Source: Nannocystales bacterium (GTDB taxonomy: Bacteria; Myxococcota_A; Polyangia; Nannocystales; Nannocystaceae). Taken from it: a DNA stretch of 64,000 nt. Shown piece by piece: positions 18,516 through 26,459 of this stretch. The notes beneath the pieces are model-generated. The model saw only the letters and a list, made by a program, of their open reading frames with translations. It was not told the DNA's origin and searched no databases. A program made the translations under genes and the position numbers. The stretch spans positions 160,001 through 224,000 of the forward strand of contig JBOEGF010000015.1 in NCBI GenBank assembly GCA_050633305.1, given 5' to 3'. The number at the start of each line of letters is the position of its first letter. Within the stretch, counting starts at the first letter, position 1.

Positions 18516-19390
18516 TGCGACACCTCGCTCTCGCGTTTCTCGTCCTCCTCGTCCCCGCCTGTGAAAGCGGCTCCGATGCGGTCACCGTGCGTGACCAGGC
18601 CGCGATCCTCGCTGAGGCCGCCTGCGGGGGCGCGTTTGCGTGCGGTTGCAAGAACCCCTTCACCGACGACTATGCCGATGAGGCCGCGTGTGTGGAGGGA
18701 GTCGAGGCTCGCCTGGTCGACCGTGCTCTCGACGACGAAGGGTTGAGCTTCAACGGTGACTGTACCGACCGGGTCGCCGCTGCGCTGTCGACGTTCGCGT
18801 GCGAGACCGACGATGAGGCTGCACTCAGCGGCCCGTTGTTCGCCGCGGCCGAGCAGCTGCGCGAGTGCCGACTGTTCTACGGCGGTGCGGGGGTGGGTGA
18901 AGCCTGCGAGCGCCTCGATGGCGGTCTTGGGGACAGCTGCAACATCGACAGCTTCTGCGACGGCGGTATGTGCGTCGCAGCGGGCTCCGGCGCGTTTGAG
19001 GACGCGTGCGAGTCCGACGGTGATTGCCAGCAGGCCTTCCGCTGTCTCGCATCCATCGAAGACCCCGACGACACCCAGCTTCGGTGCCGCGACCAGCCGT
19101 CTGCTGGGGACGCCTGCAGCATGAGCGGCGACTGTGGAGCGGGGGCCTACTGCAACATCGCCAGCGCCTGCATCGCGCTGCCTGGTAGCGGACAAGCGTG
19201 CACCACCATTGCCTCGCAAGACGGCCTCACCTGTGCCCCCGGAAACGCCTGCGCGAACGGGGTCTGCCAGGCGGGTGCGATCGCGGGTGACCCGTGTGGC
19301 GTTACCTGTGCTGCTGGGCTCACGTGCGAAGGCGGCTTTTGCGTGACGGGCACGGCCGCGGTGTGCGAGTACGAAGACGACGCGGTCTAG
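18515..19390 (+). CDS. Cys-rich lipoprotein (Dickkopf-like Cys repeats)
   Basis: Lipobox VPAC; about 30 Cys in G-x-x-C-x4-C repeats; TGATG overlap with gyrB. Confidence 0.8.
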
Positions 19391-22143
19391 GGGCCGGAGA
19401 CCAAACGCCTTCGGAGGTCGTCCAGTACACCCTGCAGTTTGGTGGCCCGCACCGCGAGTTCGGGCCGCTCTTGGTGCGGGCCGGGCCGGGCAAGATCCGC
19501 GAGCAAATCGTCGACGAGTGCAATGGCCTCGGCGGTCTTTCCCTCGATCGAGAGGAGCTCGGCGTCCAGCGTTTGTAGGAATAGCTCGAACAGGGCCGCG
19601 GTCTCGTCATCCAGGTCGAAGTCCGCGATGAGCTTTCGCGTTTGCGCGAGAGCCTTGGCCGCCTCCTTGGGGTGGTTCAGTTTGATTTGGATGGATGCTC
19701 GGTTCTGATGGAGCATCGGATCCTCCGGATTGATGGCGAGGAGCGCGGTGTTGTGTTCCAACGCGGCATCGTAGTCTTCGGCCGCCGTCGTGATGTTGGC
19801 GAGGAGCCTCCGGGCCGCGATGTGGTCACTGTTGGTCGCCGGGAGCGTGCGCGCGTACTCCCATCCCGCGTTGGCGTGTGGGACGGCCTCGTCGACCTTG
19901 CCCAGGTTGAACAGCACGTCGGCGAGCTTGATTCGGGTCCTCGCCGTGGATGGGCTCCGCGCCGGGAGGCCCTCGGTTTGAATCTCCGCCGCCTCTTGAA
20001 GGAACGGTTCGCCTGCGGCGAGGTCGAGCCGGCTGTCGGCGTGGAGGACTCCCAGGTCGTACAGGACCGCGGCACGTCTGGGGTGTGTTCGACCGAGGTG
20101 CTCCTCGTACGTTTCGGCGACTGCGTTGAGCAGGTTCCGCGCTCGCTCCTGCTCCGGCTTCTTCGCGCTGGTCATCAGAACCCCGGCGAGCCCGAGCCGC
20201 GCGGACGCGACCCCGACGGGCTCATGCAACCCCAAGCGCAGCTCAATGGCGCGTTCGTACAACACCACAGCCTCGTCGAATTCCTGTGGCCGCTGTCTCG
20301 CAAACGCCTCGGCCCTCGCCACCGTGGCGTCGGCCCGAAGCTGGAGGGGCATCGCTTCGCTGACGTGGCCCTCGACCAACCGTCGAGCGTCACGGGCCGA
20401 CTCCCAGCGCTCTTGGTGGGTGAGCTCGACGAGCCACGCGATAACCCCACGGGCCCGCGTCAGAGAGTCGTTGCCTTCCCGAATGCTGCTGACGAGGTCG
20501 TCCAGGGCCGCCGAGGGCTCCGCCATGAGTCGTCTTGCCCGCGCCCTCAGCCGGTAGGCCTCGGCCAGGGCATCGGTGCCTTGGAGGCGAGGGTCCTCGA
20601 TCAGCTCGGTCAGGGTTTGCGTCGCAGCCTCCGCCCGATGCGCCAAGACCTGCGCACCGCCGGCCTCGAGCTTGGCGAGGATGTCGTGGTCGAGCCCGCT
20701 GGCGATGTCGTCGTCGCCGGGCTCGATGCAAAACTCCGGGGAGCGCAGCAACGTGACCAGCGGTTGAACCTGCGCGATGTTCGAAGCATCGATGGCGGCG
20801 TACTCGGTCACGACCGAGTCGAACACGACCACAGAGCGCTCGAGGCAACTGAGAACCGCCGGGTCAACCCGGCCCTTGCACACCTTGGCGCGGGTGCTCT
20901 CCCAGCGAGCGAGGAAGTCTTCGATTCCGGATGAAGCCGAGGACCAGGCATTCTCAGCGTAGGGAACCTCGGTGGCCGTGAACGATCCGTGGACCCGCGA
21001 CTGCGTCTGTGGGGTCCAAAGCTCCGCCGGCTTCGAGAGGGAGCTGCAGGGGCTGTCCGAGGTCGCGATGAACGGTAGGGAGACCGCGAGTCCGACGAGG
21101 CCGACCGTCAGCCAGGGGCCGCGTCGTGCCCAGCCACGACCTCGTCGCAGGGCCACGAGCAGCGCGTCCATCGATGCCCAGCGCCCGGACGGCGCGATGC
21201 TGAGTCCTTTGCGTAGCGCCGGCCTCAACGTGCGGGGGATCGAGGACCAGGCCGAAATTGCAGCAGACTCTGGCCGGTCCCTGAGTGTGGCGTGGGTGTA
21301 GGGCCTTTCCCCGGCGAGCGCGGCGAACAGCGCTACGCAAAACGAGAATTGGTCGGCGCGAGCATCGGCGTTCTCCCCCCGGAACTGCTCGGGAGCCATG
21401 TACGCCGGGGTCCCGAGGACGGCGCCCGTGCGGGTGAGTTTTTCCCCGGAAATCCCACTGCGTGAATCCGGTCCTTGTAACGACTCCGTGGAGTGCCCGG
21501 AGCTGACCGCGAGGCCGAAGTCGACAACACGAACCCGGCCGTCGGCGCCCAAGATCGCATTGCTCGGCTTGAAGTCCCGATGCACGAGTCCAGCGCCATG
21601 TGCCGCTGCCAGGCCACGACCAGCCTGGTCGAAGACGTCGAACACCCGATCGACGGAGTGCGGTCCTTCAGTGAGCCAGTCCTTCAGCGACTTGCCATCA
21701 ATGAGCTCCATCGCGACGAAGACATCGCCCTCGTGGTCGCCAACCTCGTACACGTGCACCACATTGGGATGAGACAACTGGGCCATCGCCTTGGCCTCTC
21801 GAACCATGCGCGCGCGATGTAGCGCCTCCTTCTCGGAAGCACTGCCGAGCAGTTTCAGTGCGACGAGTCGCCCGAGCGAAGGATCCCAAGCCGAGAGCAC
21901 AACGCCCATGCCGCCCTCGCCAATCGCCTCGCGAACCTCGTAGCGCCCGATACGCAGAGCACCCGCGGTCGAGCCGAACAGCTGAGATGCGATATCAGCC
22001 TTCATCGCCTCCGCGTGCACGCCGGGCTCGGGCGCATCCACGGGCAAGCCGTCTTCCTCTCGAGTGTGGCGGGCCACCGTGTCGTGTTGGTGGCGCTCGA
22101 TGTCTGACCCGTCACGCTGAAGTGGGCTTTCCTCGGGTTCCAT
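19387..22143 (-). CDS. Hanks-type Ser/Thr protein kinase with TM helix and TPR domain
   Basis: IGEGGMGVV, VALKLL, HRDFKPSN, DFGLA and GTPAYMAPE; TM helix then TPR-like helices; start MEPEE. Confidence 0.95.
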   Translation of the reverse strand: MEPEESPLQRDGSDIERHQHDTVARHTREEDGLPVDAPEPGVHAEAMKADIASQLFGSTAGALRIGRYEVREAIGEGGMGVVLSAWDPSLGRLVALKLLGSASEKEALHRARMVREAKAMAQLSHPNVVHVYEVGDHEGDVFVAMELIDGKSLKDWLTEGPHSVDRVFDVFDQAGRGLAAAHGAGLVHRDFKPSNAILGADGRVRVVDFGLAVSSGHSTESLQGPDSRSGISGEKLTRTGAVLGTPAYMAPEQFRGENADARADQFSFCVALFAALAGERPYTHATLRDRPESAAISAWSSIPRTLRPALRKGLSIAPSGRWASMDALLVALRRGRGWARRGPWLTVGLVGLAVSLPFIATSDSPCSSLSKPAELWTPQTQSRVHGSFTATEVPYAENAWSSASSGIEDFLARWESTRAKVCKGRVDPAVLSCLERSVVVFDSVVTEYAAIDASNIAQVQPLVTLLRSPEFCIEPGDDDIASGLDHDILAKLEAGGAQVLAHRAEAATQTLTELIEDPRLQGTDALAEAYRLRARARRLMAEPSAALDDLVSSIREGNDSLTRARGVIAWLVELTHQERWESARDARRLVEGHVSEAMPLQLRADATVARAEAFARQRPQEFDEAVVLYERAIELRLGLHEPVGVASARLGLAGVLMTSAKKPEQERARNLLNAVAETYEEHLGRTHPRRAAVLYDLGVLHADSRLDLAAGEPFLQEAAEIQTEGLPARSPSTARTRIKLADVLFNLGKVDEAVPHANAGWEYARTLPATNSDHIAARRLLANITTAAEDYDAALEHNTALLAINPEDPMLHQNRASIQIKLNHPKEAAKALAQTRKLIADFDLDDETAALFELFLQTLDAELLSIEGKTAEAIALVDDLLADLARPGPHQERPELAVRATKLQGVLDDLRRRLVSGP

Positions 22144-22161
22144 GACTCGACCCGTGGCATA

Positions 22162-22788
22162 GTGCCATGCGAAGTGTCTGTGCAGAGTGATGAGGAGTTG
22201 CTGGGCGCGTGGAAGGGTGGGGATCGAAAGGCGGGGAACGAGCTGTTTCAGCGCCACTTCGAGCCCGTGAGGCGGTTCTTCGTCAACAAGACCGATGGTG
22301 ACGTGGCGGAGTTGGTGCAGAGCACGTTCGTTCGCTGCCTCGCCGCGGTCGACCGTTTTGAGGGCCGGTCCAGCTTTCGCACCTTCCTGTTCGCGATCGC
22401 GCATAACATCCTCCGCGAGCACTACCGGGCTCGGGTGAAGGATCGTCGCAACGAAGACCTTGGCGAACTTTCGGTCGCCGACATGGGCGCAGGGCCCTCG
22501 ACTGTGCTCAACGCGAAGCGAGAGCAACAAGTCCTCCTCCGCGCACTTCGGAGAATCCCGATGGCAGATCAGGTGATTCTCGAGCTGTACTACTGGGAGA
22601 AGCTCACCGCGATTCAGATCGGAGAAATCCTCGAGGTTCCAGAGAACACGGCACGCAGTCGCATCCGCAACGGGAAGAAGCGGCTCAAGAATGCGATCGC
22701 CCAGGTCGCGGAAGAACCGGCGGTCGCGGAGAGCACAGCCAACGACCTCGATGGTTGGGCCGAGCAGATTCGTGCCCGAATGGGGTGA
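22162..22788 (+). CDS. ECF sigma-70 factor, divergent from the kinase
   Basis: SDEELLGAW..GD..AG, FEGRSSFRTFLFAIA, LELYYWE and ENTARSRI; start may be GTG 22180. Confidence 0.93.
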   Translation: MPCEVSVQSDEELLGAWKGGDRKAGNELFQRHFEPVRRFFVNKTDGDVAELVQSTFVRCLAAVDRFEGRSSFRTFLFAIAHNILREHYRARVKDRRNEDLGELSVADMGAGPSTVLNAKREQQVLLRALRRIPMADQVILELYYWEKLTAIQIGEILEVPENTARSRIRNGKKRLKNAIAQVAEEPAVAESTANDLDGWAEQIRARMG

Positions 22789-22820
22789 CGGTTTTCCCTG
22801 CCGGTCCCACTGACCGGTTG

Positions 22821-23156
22821 ATGACAACGTACGCAACCACAACGCTCCTCAACAACAACACAACCGTTACAACGATTCAGCACACGAGCGCGACTTCGAT
22901 CGTGCCACTGCGACTCGAGACCGACAACGCAACGGTCGAATACGACAACTCCGTGATCGACGAAATCGTCTTCACACCTTACACGGGGTTGGCGGCCAAC
23001 TCGTACTCCGTGAAGGTGCGAAACGCCAACGGGGACATCTCGCACGCCTTCATCCACGACATCCCGACAGGCTCGAACGACGTCCGCACCCACGAATTCG
23101 AGAGTACCGGTGCCGCCAACTGGACCCTCAAGGTGACGACGAAACCGGAGACCTGA
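22821..23156 (+). CDS. Small Thr/Asn-rich hypothetical protein
   Basis: 111-aa ORF with GC3-biased codons directly after the ECF; beta-rich, no signal peptide. Confidence 0.6.
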   Translation: MTTYATTTLLNNNTTVTTIQHTSATSIVPLRLETDNATVEYDNSVIDEIVFTPYTGLAANSYSVKVRNANGDISHAFIHDIPTGSNDVRTHEFESTGAANWTLKVTTKPET

Positions 23157-23429
23157 AGTCTCAGGTTGGAGTCTCGGGTCTGTGTGCCCCGGGGCAACTC
23201 AGCGAAGGCCGTCCTGGGATGCGGATGGCCTTCACGTTTTTGCCGCGGACCTGGGGGTAGTGTCCGCCGGCATCATGTCTCGAGGGGGCACTCTCATCGC
23301 CGCGGAGGAGGCTCGACCCTACGCATGCTCCACGGAGTCTTCGTGGCGCGACGTCTGGACTACCGAGATGGATCTTGATCGCGTTCCACCTCGAACCTGG
23401 ACGGTGTTTTGAGACGTGCGATCATGAAC

Positions 23430-24641
23430 TCAGCCGCCGCAGCCACCGCAGCCACCGCCGCCACAACCTCCGCCACCACACCCACCGCCGCCACAGCTGA
23501 AGAAGGCGCTGTCCGAGCCGCTGCTCCTGCTACTGCTACTCCCGCCGCGGGACTTGGCTCCGAAGATCGGGATGAACAGCAGAAGAGGCGAGAACAGCAG
23601 AAGGTCGCCGTCGGGCTCGAGCCCCAAAGCCACCAAGCTTGGGTGGAGCAGAGCCGCTGCGGCGACGAGAATGGGGACCCACCTCCAGCCTTCGAGGCGG
23701 TTTGCCGTGACCGCGGCAAAGATGGACGCGACAAGGCCGTAGGCGACGAACCAGAGGGCGGGCGAGCTTTCGACGTGCCCTGGGACCACCACGCCAAGCC
23801 CGATGAGGCCAGCGGCTGCGACGCCAAACGATTGGCGTAGACGGGTGGTCATGAGCTTGCCGTCTTCCTCGGAGAGGACGGGCTCGAGCTCGGTCTCCAC
23901 GGGCAGGGGGGCGGGAGCGCGGTAGCTCTGAGAAAGCACGGGCTCGGGGGGCTCGTGGAGGACGGGCAGCACCCCCAGCGCCGCGATCCATCGCTTTCGC
24001 GCCTGCCGACCGCCGAGCACGAACCCTGCCAGCAGGAGAAGGGCGGAGACGAGGGCGCCGAAGATGTTCCACGCGAAGTCGCTGGGACGACTAGCGCTGA
24101 AGGCGACGACGATCGGCGTGCCGGTGATTCGTTCGCATCGCTGATGGTCGCCCAGCGGCGTGCACGAGAAACCGTCGACGGACCAGTCGGGCGGAGCGAG
24201 GAGGACGATACTCGTGGAGCCGACGTTGACGCCAAATCGGCTCAGCCAGAGGACTTCGTAGTCGACGGACGTCCACCGACGCCTTCCAACGAGAGGGTCT
24301 CGCTCGAAGGAGAACTCGATCGGTTGGGGTTCACCTTCAGAGTCTGCGGGGAGGGTGAACTCGATCCGTTGCTCGACGAAGCCATGCGCCTGTCCAATGG
24401 TGGCCTTGGCGGAGTCGATGAGGCGGAGGTTGCGAATCGGTTCCTCCCCCACGAACTTGAAGCCGTGCTCTTTGACCTCGTAAGGACTGTCCTTGGTGTA
24501 GTCTAGCCGTAGGCTGTAGCGGGTGACGTCGGGGTCGCGAAGATCGATCTCGGCTCGGTATTCCTCGATGCTCGCGGCAGCGGCAGGGCGTCCAAGCAAC
24601 ATCCCGAAGACGAACAGACAGGTACAAAGCGCCCGGTTCAT
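23430..24641 (-). CDS. Membrane protein with signal peptide, DUF2207-like extracytoplasmic domain, about 5 TM helices and C-terminal Cys/Gly tail (TIGR04222-like tail)
   Basis: Signal ...RPAAAA; ends SSSSRSSGSDSAFFSCGGGGCGGGGCGGGGCGGCGG. Confidence 0.8.
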   Translation of the reverse strand: MNRALCTCLFVFGMLLGRPAAAASIEEYRAEIDLRDPDVTRYSLRLDYTKDSPYEVKEHGFKFVGEEPIRNLRLIDSAKATIGQAHGFVEQRIEFTLPADSEGEPQPIEFSFERDPLVGRRRWTSVDYEVLWLSRFGVNVGSTSIVLLAPPDWSVDGFSCTPLGDHQRCERITGTPIVVAFSASRPSDFAWNIFGALVSALLLLAGFVLGGRQARKRWIAALGVLPVLHEPPEPVLSQSYRAPAPLPVETELEPVLSEEDGKLMTTRLRQSFGVAAAGLIGLGVVVPGHVESSPALWFVAYGLVASIFAAVTANRLEGWRWVPILVAAAALLHPSLVALGLEPDGDLLLFSPLLLFIPIFGAKSRGGSSSSRSSGSDSAFFSCGGGGCGGGGCGGGGCGGCGG

Positions 24642-25387
24642 GAGGACGACTCCTCAATGCCATCGACGATCCGTGTCAGGTTCTCGATGAAGGGAAGCAG
24701 GGTGTCGAGCGCACTCGCGACATCCGGAACGGACCCGGCGCCACGGGTACGCTCGTAGATCGCGAGAACGGCGGCGACATCGAGGTCCGCGGCTTCACCC
24801 AATGCTCGGACCGCATGGGTGTCGGTCAGCGGCGCCTTCTGTTGGAGACAGACCAGGGTGTGGTGGGCGGAGATCGAGATGGTGTCCAGTGCATCGAACA
24901 CGGCCCGTCCGGCTTCGCCTGGGTTTCCGGCCAGTCCAAGGAACACGCGGTTGCGCAGGCGTCGACCGAGGCCACGCAGCTGGAACTCGAGGGCATGACG
25001 AAGGTGCGCGGGCTCGATGTGGATGTCGCCGAAGGGGTCCTCGCCGGCGATGAGCCAATGCCGGGTCTTCCACTCGGCAAGCTCGAGCGCGAAGACGTCG
25101 GCGCTTCGTCGCAGCTCGTCGACGGTGACGAGCCGAGGACGGATCCCTGCGGCGGTGGAGCTTCGCAATGCAGTGGCGAGGCTTCCAACAACATCAGGCG
25201 GAAGCTGGCGAGCGACCAAGAGCATCTCGGGACGCCTCGCCCGGTCGGCGCGTTCGGCATGCATGGCGTTGCCGACCAGCACGGCTGCGACGAAATCGTC
25301 ACCGAGACACTCAGCACCCGCCCGGGCTGCGGACTGGAGCAGTTTTCCAGTTCGCGAAGGTAACCAGTTGGCTGTTTCCGGCGGCAC
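24638..25387 (-). CDS. Nucleotidyltransferase-fold protein, probably catalytically degenerate
   Basis: AAVLVGNA in place of LYGS; DELRRSADVFALE and LIAGEDPF motifs of the LemA-associated NTase-like family; no SDxD. Confidence 0.6.
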   Translation of the reverse strand: MPPETANWLPSRTGKLLQSAARAGAECLGDDFVAAVLVGNAMHAERADRARRPEMLLVARQLPPDVVGSLATALRSSTAAGIRPRLVTVDELRRSADVFALELAEWKTRHWLIAGEDPFGDIHIEPAHLRHALEFQLRGLGRRLRNRVFLGLAGNPGEAGRAVFDALDTISISAHHTLVCLQQKAPLTDTHAVRALGEAADLDVAAVLAIYERTRGAGSVPDVASALDTLLPFIENLTRIVDGIEESSS

Positions 25388-25416
25388 GCGAGAACCCTAC
25401 ACGCTAGCCTCTCGCC

Positions 25417-26250
25417 GTGTTCCCCGTCGCTGTTGGGCTCTCGTTTCGCCCCGCCTGGCTCGACTCGCTGCTTGCGCTGCCGGGCCGGGGGCCTATCGAC
25501 GTCCTGGAGGTGATGGTCGACGACGCTCTGCACTGTGCTGACACGCTCAAGCTCTTTCGACGCTTGGGCGCGCGGTGGCCTCTGCTCGGGCACGGCGTCG
25601 CACTGGGAATCGGAAACGCGGACGGACTCGACTGTGGCTACCTCGCGGCGATCTCCGAGATCCTCGCGCACCTGCACGTCCGCTGGTACGGGGACCACCT
25701 GTGCTTTCTGACGGCTGGGGACTACGAACTCGGGCACTTCGCGCCGGTCGGAGCCGATCATGATTCGCTGGCCGCCCTCGAGGTCAACGGGGCGGAGGTT
25801 CGGCGCACAGTGACGGTGCCCTTCTTGCTCGAAAACCCGGCGGATGTGCTGGGGTGGGGCGCGGAGTCCCCGAACGCGGGCGCGCGGCTGGGGCGGGAGT
25901 TTGGCGCGTGCATCGAGGCGGCAGACGCTGGCGCAATCCTCGATGTCACAAACCTGCTCTATGGGTCCCGCAACGACGGCTTCAACGCAGAGGCGTTCAT
26001 CGCCGCGATGCCGCTCGAGCGCCTGGTTCAGGTTCACCTCGCGGGCGGCCGACAGATCAGGGGGTTGTGGATCGACAGCCACGATCGCCCCATCGAACCG
26101 GACTCCATGGCGTTGCTCGAGGTCGTCCTCCGCGACAGTCCGAATCTGCGGGCCGTCACGCTGGAGTGGGACGAGGACTTGCCCGAGTTCGAGGTCGCGT
26201 TGGCAGCGGTCGACCGCGTTCGGAGCGTCGTTCGGGAGGCTGGACGATGA
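25417..26250 (+). CDS. DUF692 family multinuclear non-heme iron oxidative enzyme (MNIO, MbnB/TglH/ChrH family)
   Basis: VGLSFRP, HGVALGIG, GDHLCF, LLENP, LDVTNL, QVHLAGG, IDSHD and LEWD: the ordered DUF692 metal-ligand motifs. Confidence 0.93.
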   Translation: MFPVAVGLSFRPAWLDSLLALPGRGPIDVLEVMVDDALHCADTLKLFRRLGARWPLLGHGVALGIGNADGLDCGYLAAISEILAHLHVRWYGDHLCFLTAGDYELGHFAPVGADHDSLAALEVNGAEVRRTVTVPFLLENPADVLGWGAESPNAGARLGREFGACIEAADAGAILDVTNLLYGSRNDGFNAEAFIAAMPLERLVQVHLAGGRQIRGLWIDSHDRPIEPDSMALLEVVLRDSPNLRAVTLEWDEDLPEFEVALAAVDRVRSVVREAGR

Positions 26251-26459
26251 ACCTGAAGAAACGTCAGCGCTTCATGGCCAGGTTCCTGACCGACCCCGCT
26301 TTCGAGGCCAGGGTTCGAGAATCCCCTGAGCTGATCGCCGCGACGATGGACGTTCCGCTGGAGGAGGTCTTGCGGCTGGTCAGTGTGGAGGCTCGCCGGA
26401 TCCAGGCATTTCGGGCGAGCCGGCAGGTCAAGGCCCGACGGCGTCGGGGCGGAGACTAG
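26247..26459 (+). CDS. Short helical MNIO partner protein
   Basis: ATGA overlap with the MNIO stop; MNLKKRQRFMARFLTDPAFEARV...RRIQAFRASRQVKARRR, 70 aa. Confidence 0.7.
   Translation: MNLKKRQRFMARFLTDPAFEARVRESPELIAATMDVPLEEVLRLVSVEARRIQAFRASRQVKARRRRGGD

What the first reader, a model, noticed from the sequence alone, without database searches (positions are those of the whole stretch)
23430..26459. MNIO (DUF692) locus whose only plausible substrate is the (CGGGG)n tail of a polytopic membrane protein
Seen: a complete DUF692 enzyme, a translationally coupled 70-aa partner, and a head-to-head operon only 29 nt away. That operon encodes an NTase-fold protein and a 403-aa membrane protein ending in ...FFS-CGGGG-CGGGG-CGGGG-CGG-CGG (5 Cys, 23433-23495). 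No short Cys-rich precursor ORF is visible nearby. Known: MNIOs (MbnB, TglH, ChrH, bufferin/oxazolin enzymes) modify Cys residues of ribosomal peptides, often giving copper ligands, and TIGR04222-type proteins with GCGG tails co-occur with DUF692. Inference: the enzyme modifies a Cys/Gly tail attached to a signal-peptide/DUF2207-like membrane protein, giving a membrane-tethered RiPP-like metal-binding or redox module. I do not know this four-gene architecture to have been characterised.
Basis: partly seen in the sequence, partly recalled or inferred. Interest (0 to 1): 0.85.

Follow-up and report, generated by a model that had tools for sequence, protein, structure and literature searches.

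The report
Membrane protein Cys/Gly tail with MNIO oxidase
A conserved four-gene cassette of myxobacteria pairs an iron oxidase and its small helper with a membrane protein ending in a cysteine/glycine tail, which the oxidase most likely converts into metal-binding groups; this kind of pairing was predicted from genomes in 2025 but has never been tested, and here it sits on a different membrane scaffold.

Summary
All four genes, both ATGA overlaps, the 29-nt divergent gap and the 5-Cys tail are as described.

The cassette is real. The same head-to-head arrangement occurs in four other Myxococcota genomes, with MNIO identity of 46-62%. All 16 apparently full-length family representatives keep a Ser/Gly/Cys tail ending CGG or CGS.

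The MNIO keeps all nine columns I recall as metal ligands. The 70-aa protein folds as a helical bundle and is predicted to dock on the MNIO (ipSAE 0.91, best control 0.01).

The best reading is that the tail is the MNIO substrate (about 0.55). No call shows modification.

A 2025 survey (PMC12452194) proposed TIGR04222 membrane proteins with such tails as MNIO substrates. This scan has also reported NTase/TIGR04222/MNIO/small-protein operons in other genomes.

New here:
- a non-TIGR04222, DUF2207-like scaffold with a signal peptide;
- a split divergent layout;
- an NTase-like protein without the catalytic motif;
- an NHLP-like helper;
- a tail predicted to be cytoplasmic.

Two loci count against strict dependence: L036 has the tail protein without the MNIO, and G005 has an MNIO remnant alone.

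The parts
23430..24641 (-). 403-aa membrane protein, the putative substrate. By AF2 it has a signal-peptide-like helix, a beta-sandwich domain (res 24-184), TM1, a 57-aa loop, four further helices and a disordered tail.
   Evidence: ORF. AF2 model pLDDT 80.8. Hydropathy and positive-inside analysis. No Pfam or NCBIfam hit. Family of 19 other representatives.
23433..23495 (-). C-terminal tail CGGGG-CGGGG-CGGGG-CGG-CGG (5 Cys). It follows a Ser-rich linker (res 364-382).
   Evidence: The tail is conserved in 16 of 16 apparently full-length representatives and in L029, L030, L036, L118 and L119. C388 and C398 are invariant in A7.
23901..23924 (-). YRAPAPLP motif (res 240-247) in the loop between TM1 and TM2. 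Apart from the tail, it is the most conserved non-periplasmic segment.
   Evidence: Invariant in A1. Y240 and R241 are nearly invariant and P243 invariant in the 23-row A7.
24638..25387 (-). 249-aa NTase-fold-like protein. Its stop overlaps the membrane-protein start by 4 nt. The canonical GS...DxD motif is replaced by G[NAS]A...PE[MILV].
   Evidence: Alignment A2. Relatives carry PF01909. A2-type NTase lies next to 7 of 7 Myxococcota TIGR04222 genes.
25388..25416 (.). 29-nt gap between the two divergent GTG start codons.
   Evidence: The gap is the same length in L118.
25417..26250 (+). MNIO (DUF692) enzyme of 277 aa.
   Evidence: PF05114 at 164 bits. Best NCBIfam hit is BufB at 127.7 bits, below its cut-off of 310. 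H59, H94, E139, D176, N179, H207, D220, H222 and E250 are invariant. The cassette MNIOs form a clade with 100/100 support.
26247..26459 (+). 70-aa helical protein, the putative MNIO partner. Its start overlaps the MNIO stop as ATGA.
   Evidence: AF2 pLDDT 91.1, five helices. Predicted complex with the MNIO scores ipSAE 0.91 against a best control of 0.01. Weak NHLP-clan similarity.

Best explanation
The four genes form one functional cassette built from two modules.

Module B is a catalytically intact MNIO and a 70-aa five-helix protein. The helper docks beside the MNIO active-site face, as partner proteins do in other MNIO systems.

Module A is an NTase-fold protein that has lost the canonical catalytic motif, together with a membrane protein. 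That protein has a signal peptide, a periplasmic beta-sandwich domain, five TM helices, a conserved loop (YRAPAPLP) and a disordered Ser/Gly/Cys tail. Both the loop and the tail are predicted to be cytoplasmic.

Inferred mechanism: the MNIO-helper complex oxidises the tail cysteines, each followed by Gly, into heterocycles of the thiooxazole or oxazolone-thioamide kind. This would happen in the cytoplasm and leave a membrane-tethered metal-binding (probably copper) module. The NTase-like protein would act as a non-catalytic adaptor for the membrane protein.

Shown here: gene anatomy, conservation, co-occurrence, intact ligand columns and a predicted MNIO-helper interface. Inferred: the substrate, the chemistry, metal binding and the role of the NTase-like protein.
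For: 1. The same divergent four-gene arrangement is present in 5 genomes: the window, L029, L030, L118 and L119. MNIO identity is 46-62% and membrane-protein identity 25-33%. Three further pairs share a contig length in the protein tables: P0025/P0002, P0026/P0009 and P0030/P0011. That these lie on one contig is an inference.
2. All 16 apparently full-length family representatives keep a tail ending CGG or CGS, although the TM segments are barely conserved.
3. In a 35-row tree the 5 cassette MNIOs form a clade (100/100). They join the 4 TIGR04222-linked MNIOs in a wider clade (99/99), apart from the bufferin-type paralogues. One of the two other members of that wider clade, L135, sits behind a classical 76-aa precursor with a Cys-rich core.
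4. The MNIO tracks the tail. Of 6 tail-protein loci of this family, 5 have it. Of Myxococcota TIGR04222 loci, 4 of 5 with a tail have it and 0 of 2 without. The NTase is present in 7 of 7 of those loci regardless.
5. All nine conserved His/Asp/Glu/Asn columns are intact.
6. The helper is predicted to bind the MNIO: ipSAE 0.91, 0.91 and 0.92 in three runs, best of 3 controls 0.01. That mark was reached by 116 of 157 solved complexes and 2 of 215 mismatched pairs. At least 84% of contacts agree between runs and partner pLDDT is at least 82. The interface uses the helper's invariant R6, Q7, R51, A54, S58 and K62, and MNIO loops next to H59, H94, E139, H207 and D220.
7. Four helices follow the conserved loop, and Lys/Arg residues follow the positive-inside pattern. 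This puts loop and tail on the cytoplasmic side, where an MNIO could reach them.
8. No alternative Cys-rich ORF lies nearby.
9. PMC12452194 independently proposes Ser/Gly/Cys tails of TIGR04222 proteins as MNIO substrates (passages and sections 13, 17 and 18 read).
Against: - There is no direct evidence of modification.
- L036 keeps an intact 5-Cys tail protein and NTase-like gene. It lacks the MNIO and helper at the position they occupy in the syntenic L030 and L119. The tail can therefore persist without an adjacent MNIO.
- One Myxococcota TIGR04222 locus (L131) has a tail but no MNIO within about 5 kb.
- The 2025 survey reports that a third of genomes with TIGR04222 genes have no MNIO gene at all.
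- The last TM helix is short and has pLDDT of about 50. If it is not a TM helix, the tail is periplasmic.
- Contexts were recovered for only 6 of at least 60 MNIO clade members. The loci are related, so the counts are not independent.
- The predicted complex used my own shallow 6-row alignment for the helper.
Confidence: 0.55

Rival explanations
1. The tail is not an MNIO substrate. It is a Cys-bearing version of the Gly-rich tails common on DUF2207-, TPM- and TIGR04222-type membrane proteins. It would bind metal or an Fe-S cluster as free thiols, or simply act as a flexible tail. The MNIO and helper would then act on something else, such as an unlinked peptide or another Cys of the cassette proteins.
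For: - L036 and L131 keep the tail without an adjacent MNIO.
- A third of genomes with TIGR04222 genes lack MNIO genes (paper passage).
- The NTase-like and membrane-protein pair is the more constant core: 7 of 7 TIGR04222 loci have the NTase.
- Distant NTase-like relatives sit next to LemA genes, with no MNIO in any of 79 loci.
Against: - The MNIO is present in 9 of 11 tail-bearing loci and in 0 of 2 tail-less loci.
- MNIOs linked to two different tail scaffolds fall in one clade.
- No other Cys-rich candidate lies in the window's cassette.
- The G005 MNIO copy, which lacks module A, is truncated and carries a stop.
Confidence: 0.2
2. The 70-aa protein is the real precursor: an NHLP-type leader with a very short core that the MNIO modifies. 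The membrane protein and the NTase-like protein would serve export, immunity or an unrelated function.
For: - Weak but repeated NHLP-clan similarity: NF038399 at E 6.4e-5 and 23 bits; the PDB profile hit 6lk7 (Os1348) at E 1.2e-3; the VIA top hit 6lk7_A at Z 6.1, rmsd 4.7 over 70 residues.
- Os1348 itself is proposed to be a small precursor protein (PMC7726476; abstract and passages).
- MNIOs can act on residues other than Cys (paper discussion).
Against: - No Cys is present.
- After K62 the six homologues share only R66 and G68, and they end in D, G, R, A, W and R.
- The whole chain is a confident folded bundle, pLDDT 91.
- The gene follows and overlaps the MNIO gene, which is the usual place of partners and not of precursors.
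- The NF038399 score is below its cut-off of 40.
- Z 6.1 is within the range the tool calls common for helical bundles.
Confidence: 0.1
3. The membrane protein is a giant precursor. After the MNIO modifies it, the tail is cleaved off and released as a free Cys/Gly-derived metallophore.
For: The evidence is the same as for the best explanation up to the modification step. A Ser-rich linker precedes the tail.
Against: No protease or exporter gene is conserved across the five cassettes. A cytoplasmic tail would need export. The conserved periplasmic domain and the loop motif point to a function for the whole protein.
Confidence: 0.08

Closest known systems
TIGR04222 membrane protein - MNIO - PME-type 2 gene clusters. 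These were described in silico in Microb Genom 2025 (PMC12452194) and have not been tested experimentally in any paper my searches found.
   Same: - A polytopic membrane protein ends in an unstructured Ser/Gly-rich tail interspersed with Cys.
- A bufferin-like MNIO is linked to it.
- A short non-DUF2063 protein is encoded right after the MNIO.
- The MNIOs of both kinds group together in my tree, 99/99.
- A homologous NTase-like gene lies beside the membrane gene in 7 of 7 Myxococcota TIGR04222 loci.
   Different: - No TIGR04222 HMM match in any of 5 members, even at E<=10.
- A signal peptide and a 160-aa periplasmic beta-sandwich domain are present.
- The genes are split into two divergent pairs, not one operon. 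Compare L129, which is co-directional.
- The tail is predicted to be cytoplasmic here, whereas the paper predicts periplasmic tails.
- The NTase-like protein lacks GS...DxD, while L134 keeps it.
- The paper never mentions a nucleotidyltransferase: 0 occurrences.
- The paper's filters were <200 aa with a signal peptide, or no signal peptide, and in either case the gene preceding the MNIO. They would miss this family (my inference).
Bufferins (BufA/BufB/BufC) and oxazolins (HvfA/HvfB/HvfC)
   Same: The closest curated MNIO models are BufB (127.7 bits) and HvfB (105.2 bits). The targets are Cys residues. From recall, oxazolin repeats carry Cys-Gly.
   Different: - Scores are far below the equivalog cut-offs of 310 and 360.
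- There is no DUF2063 partner, no DoxX gene and no small exported precursor.
- The substrate candidate is a 403-aa membrane protein.
DUF2207 (PF09972/PF20990) membrane proteins
   Same: The architecture is a signal peptide, an N-terminal beta-rich extracytoplasmic domain, a TM region and a Gly-rich tail. DUF2207 clusters are the top structural neighbours in the Atlas, at TM 0.41-0.45.
   Different: There is no Pfam hit at E<=10. TM-scores are under 0.5. The tail contains Cys. DUF2207 proteins are not known to me to be linked to an MNIO.
Os1348 / NHLP-clan small proteins (NF038399; PDB 6lk7)
   Same: The helper is a small all-helical fold of similar length. Sequence similarity is weak and structural similarity is Z 6.1.
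   Different: The score is below the family cut-off. Os1348 sits with acetyltransferase, HEXXH peptidase and SagB-type genes, not with an MNIO. Here the protein is predicted to dock on the enzyme and has no conserved core.

Membership tests
MNIO / DUF692 (PF05114) | Match to the family HMM above the gathering score | tested here: met
   164.1 bits against a cut-off of 25, covering profile positions 2-262 of 263.
MNIO / DUF692 (PF05114) | Conserved His/Asp/Glu/Asn metal-ligand columns. That these columns are the ligands is recalled from MbnB/TglH structures and was not checked here. | tested here: met
   H59, H94, E139, D176, N179, H207, D220, H222 and E250 are invariant against three canonical paralogues and in the 40-row clade alignment.
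BufB / HvfB equivalogs (NF050167, NF003818) | Score above NCBIfam's curated cut-off | tested here: not met
   127.7 bits against 310, and 105.2 bits against 360.
TIGR04222 membrane proteins | Match to the TIGR04222 HMM | tested here: not met
   No family at E<=10 for any of 5 members. No match in the whole genome.
TIGR04222 membrane proteins | C-terminal Ser/Gly-rich low-complexity region with Cys, genetically linked to an MNIO. This holds for a subset of the family, as the paper describes. | tested here: met
   Tail. Linkage in 5 of 6 loci.
DUF2207 (PF09972) | Match to the Pfam HMM | tested here: not met
   No hit at E<=10.
DUF2207 (PF09972) | Shared fold or architecture | tested here: inconclusive
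   Atlas structural neighbours are DUF2207 clusters at TM 0.41-0.45. Foldseek against the PDB gives only architecture-level hits at TM 0.2-0.3.
MNIO partner proteins (PME-type 2, DUF2063-like) | Encoded directly after the MNIO gene; helix-rich domain | tested here: met
   ATGA overlap. Five helices at pLDDT 91.
MNIO partner proteins (PME-type 2, DUF2063-like) | Structural relation to NGO1945 (3dee) or TglI (8hi7) | tested here: inconclusive
   Neither chain appears in the Foldseek or VIA lists. hhalign against the C-terminal extension fused to the L134 MNIO gives only 23 aligned columns at probability 1.6%.
MNIO partner proteins (PME-type 2, DUF2063-like) | Binds the MNIO | tested here: met
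   Prediction only. ipSAE 0.91 against a best control of 0.01; that mark was reached by 116 of 157 solved and 2 of 215 mismatched pairs.
NHLP-clan precursor (NF038399) | Score above the curated cut-off | tested here: not met
   23 bits against a cut-off of 40.
NHLP-clan precursor (NF038399) | Conserved core peptide after the leader domain | tested here: not met
   C-termini differ in length and sequence across 6 homologues, and there is no Cys.
Pol-beta-type nucleotidyltransferase (PF01909) | HMM match | tested here: not met
   The window protein and 5 other cassette-type members have no hit. Homologues P0018, P0022 and the L134 NTase do match.
Pol-beta-type nucleotidyltransferase (PF01909) | Catalytic motif hG[GS] ... 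[DE]h[DE]h (motif recalled) | tested here: not met
   The cassette clade reads G[NAS]A ... PE[MILV], and P0016 lacks even the Glu. D97 and E102 are invariant. L134 keeps GS...DIDL.

The most novel reading that the evidence does not exclude
The Ser/Gly/Cys tail is a portable, cytoplasmic MNIO-substrate module that evolution has grafted onto at least two unrelated membrane scaffolds: TIGR04222 and this DUF2207-like one. Recognition would be split from the substrate. The 70-aa NHLP-like protein would be a leader domain working in trans, docked on the enzyme. The catalytically dead NTase-fold protein would be an adaptor that reads the conserved YRAPAPLP loop. This would make a RiPP-type pathway that matures a full-size membrane protein in place, yielding a membrane-tethered metal site on the cytoplasmic face.
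Probability: 0.2. Interest if true: 0.8.

Novelty: new variant of a known kind. Interest (0 to 1): 0.5.

Why it matters
MNIO enzymes are known to act on small peptides. Whether they also mature full-size membrane proteins is an open, published hypothesis with no experimental test.

This family is a second, independent scaffold. It carries the same tail, the same MNIO lineage and the same NTase-like neighbour. That points to the tail itself as the unit under selection.

The cassette is compact: four genes, a 70-aa helper and a tail predicted to be cytoplasmic. That makes it a convenient system for a co-expression test.

If the tail is modified, it would define membrane-anchored Cys-derived metal ligands as a class. 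It would also give a role to a widespread NTase-like gene that the 2025 survey did not mention.

Tried and rejected
- **Close relatives with the 403-aa query.** No match in 59 related genomes. Only 4 homologues appeared in the word-indexed search. The Gly-rich tail probably crowded the 8000-candidate list. A full HMMER scan with the tail removed found 19.
- **Genome-contig scan with A1.** It found only 2 loci.
- **Metagenome scan with the NTase-like alignment.** It returned one cassette-type locus (L036) and 79 distant relatives. Of those, 68 have a LemA-like ORF and none has an MNIO. This was useful for the family's range but not for the cassette.
- **Sampling for the MNIO clade.** 401 phylum genomes gave only the window's own. 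72 order genomes gave two more (G005, G469). 400 class genomes gave one further (G702).
- **DUF2063/TglI likeness of the helper.** It is absent from the PDB profile search at E<=10 and from the Foldseek and VIA lists. hhalign to the fused extension of the L134 MNIO was not significant.
- **Structure search of the membrane protein.** It gave pentameric ligand-gated channels, M1 aminopeptidases and ribophorin I at TM 0.2-0.3. I read this as shared general architecture only.
- **Orthology of the G005 upstream kinase with the window's kinase.** Only generic kinase similarity was found.
- **Gene X.** This gene follows the membrane gene in L029, L030, L036, L119 and L134. It was not found in the window or the rest of the genome.
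- **Earlier findings.** Look-ups by place and by sequence returned nothing.


Full report
**1. Observation**

The window carries four genes:
- a 403-aa protein at 23430-24641(-) ending AFFS-CGGGG-CGGGG-CGGGG-CGG-CGG;
- a 249-aa protein at 24638-25387(-);
- a 277-aa MNIO at 25417-26250(+), PF05114 at 164 bits;
- a 70-aa ORF at 26247-26459(+).

Both same-strand junctions are ATGA overlaps. The divergent GTG starts are 29 nt apart. The tail is encoded with mixed Gly and Cys codons.

No convincing Cys-rich small ORF lies in the only free space, the 273-nt gap at 23157-23429.

**2. The cassette is conserved but rare**

The 403-aa protein has no match in 59 related genomes. A full HMMER scan without the tail found 19 other representatives. 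Sixteen of them end in a Ser/Gly/Cys tail that finishes CGG or CGS. The other three are fragments of 169, 200 and 348 aa.

In the 23-row alignment the conserved parts are:
- the periplasmic domain, including two Cys;
- the loop motif Y240, R241 and P243;
- the tail.

The TM segments are not conserved.

The same head-to-head four-gene layout is present in four other loci:
- L029, a Polyangiaceae MAG;
- L030, a Myxococcales MAG;
- L118 (G469), with 62% MNIO identity and again a 29-nt gap;
- L119 (G702), with 46% MNIO identity.

The MNIO clade has 60 other clusters at 43-78% identity. Three of them share a contig length with a membrane-protein or NTase-like hit. That they lie on one contig is an inference.

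Sampling found clade members (E <= 1e-45) in few other genomes:
- 0 of 400 other phylum genomes;
- 2 of 71 other order genomes;
- 3 of 399 other class genomes.

**3. Results against strict linkage**

L036 is a metagenome contig syntenic with L030 and L119. The shared order is thiC, cytochrome c, [helper, MNIO], NTase-like, membrane protein, gene X. L036 has the NTase-like gene and an intact 5-Cys tail protein but no MNIO or helper.

G005, of the same genus, has only an MNIO copy and the small gene. That copy lacks similarity to the first 37 residues and carries an in-frame TAG. Neither module-A gene lies upstream. The contig ends 430 nt further on.

**4. The enzyme and its helper**

Nine His/Asp/Glu/Asn columns are invariant: H59, H94, E139, D176, N179, H207, D220, H222 and E250. 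This holds against canonical paralogues and across 40 clade members. That these columns are the iron ligands is from memory.

The curated BufB and HvfB models score best but far below their cut-offs.

The 70-aa protein is modelled as a five-helix bundle, pLDDT 91.1. It has no Cys. After K62 only R66 and G68 are shared among six homologues.

It resembles the NHLP-clan protein Os1348 weakly:
- NF038399 at E 6.4e-5, 23 bits against a cut-off of 40;
- PDB 6lk7 at E 1.2e-3;
- VIA Z 6.1, rmsd 4.7 over 70 residues, within the range the tool calls common for helical bundles.

The complex prediction supports binding to the MNIO but does not show it. The score was 0.91, and the best of 3 controls was 0.01. 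That mark was reached by 116 of 157 solved complexes and 2 of 215 mismatched pairs. At least 84% of contacts agree between runs, and partner pLDDT is at least 82. My own alignments were used, so these counts hold only roughly.

The contacts use helices 1 and 5 of the helper, which hold its invariant residues. On the MNIO they use loops next to the conserved metal columns.

In a TIGR04222-type operon (L129), the 67-aa protein after the MNIO has similar first and last helices by eye. In L134 a longer extension is fused to the MNIO. hhalign did not confirm homology with that extension.

**5. The NTase-like protein**

It has no Pfam hit itself. Its relatives carry PF01909. In the cassette clade the canonical GS...DxD reads G[NAS]A...PE[MILV], while D97 and E102 stay invariant.

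An A2-type NTase lies beside the membrane gene in 7 of 7 Myxococcota TIGR04222 loci. L134 keeps GS...DIDL.

Distant relatives at 25-37% identity in soil metagenomes have a LemA-like ORF in 68 of 79 loci. Three of 3 checked by Pfam are LemA. None of the 79 loci has an MNIO.

**6. MNIO follows the tail, NTase follows the membrane protein**

Of the 7 TIGR04222 loci, 5 have a Cys tail. Four of those 5 have an MNIO within about 6 kb. Neither of the 2 tail-less loci does.

With this family (5 of 6), 9 of 11 tail-bearing loci have an MNIO. The loci are related and few, so this is indicative only.

In a 35-row tree the five cassette MNIOs form a clade (100/100). The G005 remnant and matches under 200 residues were left out, and the root is at the midpoint. 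The cassette clade joins the four TIGR04222-linked MNIOs, L023 and the long-branched L006 in a wider clade (99/99). That wider clade stands apart from the bufferin-type paralogues.

L023 (L135) has a classical 76-aa precursor with a Cys-rich core and a 308-aa partner. L006 (L136) has nothing recognisable.

**7. Topology**

AF2 (pLDDT 80.8) gives the following:
- an N-terminal helix;
- a beta-sandwich at residues 24-184;
- helices at 186-222, 258-285, 294-314, 318-338 and 347-361, the last at pLDDT of about 50;
- a disordered tail.

Lys/Arg counts follow positive-inside for a cytoplasmic loop and tail. I put this at about 70%.

**8. Comparison with what is known**

PMC12452194 reports several things (passages and sections 13, 17 and 18 read):
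- TIGR04222 proteins with Ser/Gly/Cys tails are frequent neighbours of bufferin-like MNIOs.
- It proposes a subset of them as substrates.
- It names the short partners PME-type 2.
- It predicts periplasmic tails.
- A third of TIGR04222 genomes lack MNIO genes.

The paper does not contain the word nucleotidyltransferase. Its filters would miss a 403-aa protein that has a signal peptide and lies two genes from the MNIO. That is my inference.

I found no experimental test in the held library (searches; listings only for the other papers).

Earlier notes of this scan describe NTase/TIGR04222/MNIO/roughly 80-aa operons in at least 17 other genomes. I checked that pattern myself only in Myxococcota.

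**9. Verdict**

This is a real, conserved cassette. It is best read as a new scaffold variant of the predicted class of MNIO systems that modify membrane-protein tails. Substrate and chemistry remain inferred. Confidence is 0.55 and interest 0.5.

Noticed in passing
L029:11112-12281(+), L030:11160-12311(+), L036:7621-9075(+), L119:4496-5785(-), L134:8829-10136(+): A conserved gene 'X' of about 390-480 aa follows the tail-protein gene in four cassette-type loci and in one TIGR04222-type locus. It shows 32-40% identity between loci. Its only family signal is a weak DUF6065 hit (E 6e-5, below cut-off). It was not found in the window or elsewhere in the genome. It may be a fifth component that this lineage has lost.
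   Followed up: partly
L037-L115 (metagenome loci): A widespread branch of the same NTase-like family, at 25-37% identity and mostly from soil metagenomes, has a LemA-family ORF in 68 of 79 loci. None of these loci has an MNIO. The NTase-LemA pairing is unexplained.
   Followed up: partly
L135:6562-8645 (G028): The nearest MNIO not linked to a tail has a classical layout: a 76-aa ORF ending in a Cys-rich core (CLSCYCGSGCLCGS...), then the MNIO, then a 308-aa partner-like protein.
   Followed up: no
L134:5328-7067 (G015, same family as the window's genome): An MNIO is fused to a C-terminal extension of about 190 aa (579 aa in all). It is followed by a canonical PF01909 NTase, a weak TIGR04222-like tail protein and gene X. 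This is a co-directional version of the system.
   Followed up: partly
window 22755-23156 (+): A 133-aa Thr/Asn-rich ORF lies just after an ECF sigma-factor gene (22162-22788). It has no Pfam or NCBIfam hit. Its GC content is locally lower (0.56-0.60 against about 0.65). It is not part of the conserved cassette.
   Followed up: no
window 19387-22842 (-): A Ser/Thr kinase with a long TPR-rich C-terminal region. The listed 1151-aa ORF overlaps the sigma-factor gene on the other strand, so its true start is probably further in. This neighbour is not conserved in the other cassettes.
   Followed up: no
G000 contigs C32, C7, C11, C38, C67: The 11-Mb genome has seven PF05114 matches at six places, including two adjacent ones on C38. 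Three are canonical high-scoring MNIOs at 322-329 bits.
   Followed up: no
L118:5190-6794 (+): A 534-aa secreted-looking protein packed with short Cys-containing repeats lies directly after the helper gene in G469. It is not conserved in the other cassettes.
   Followed up: no
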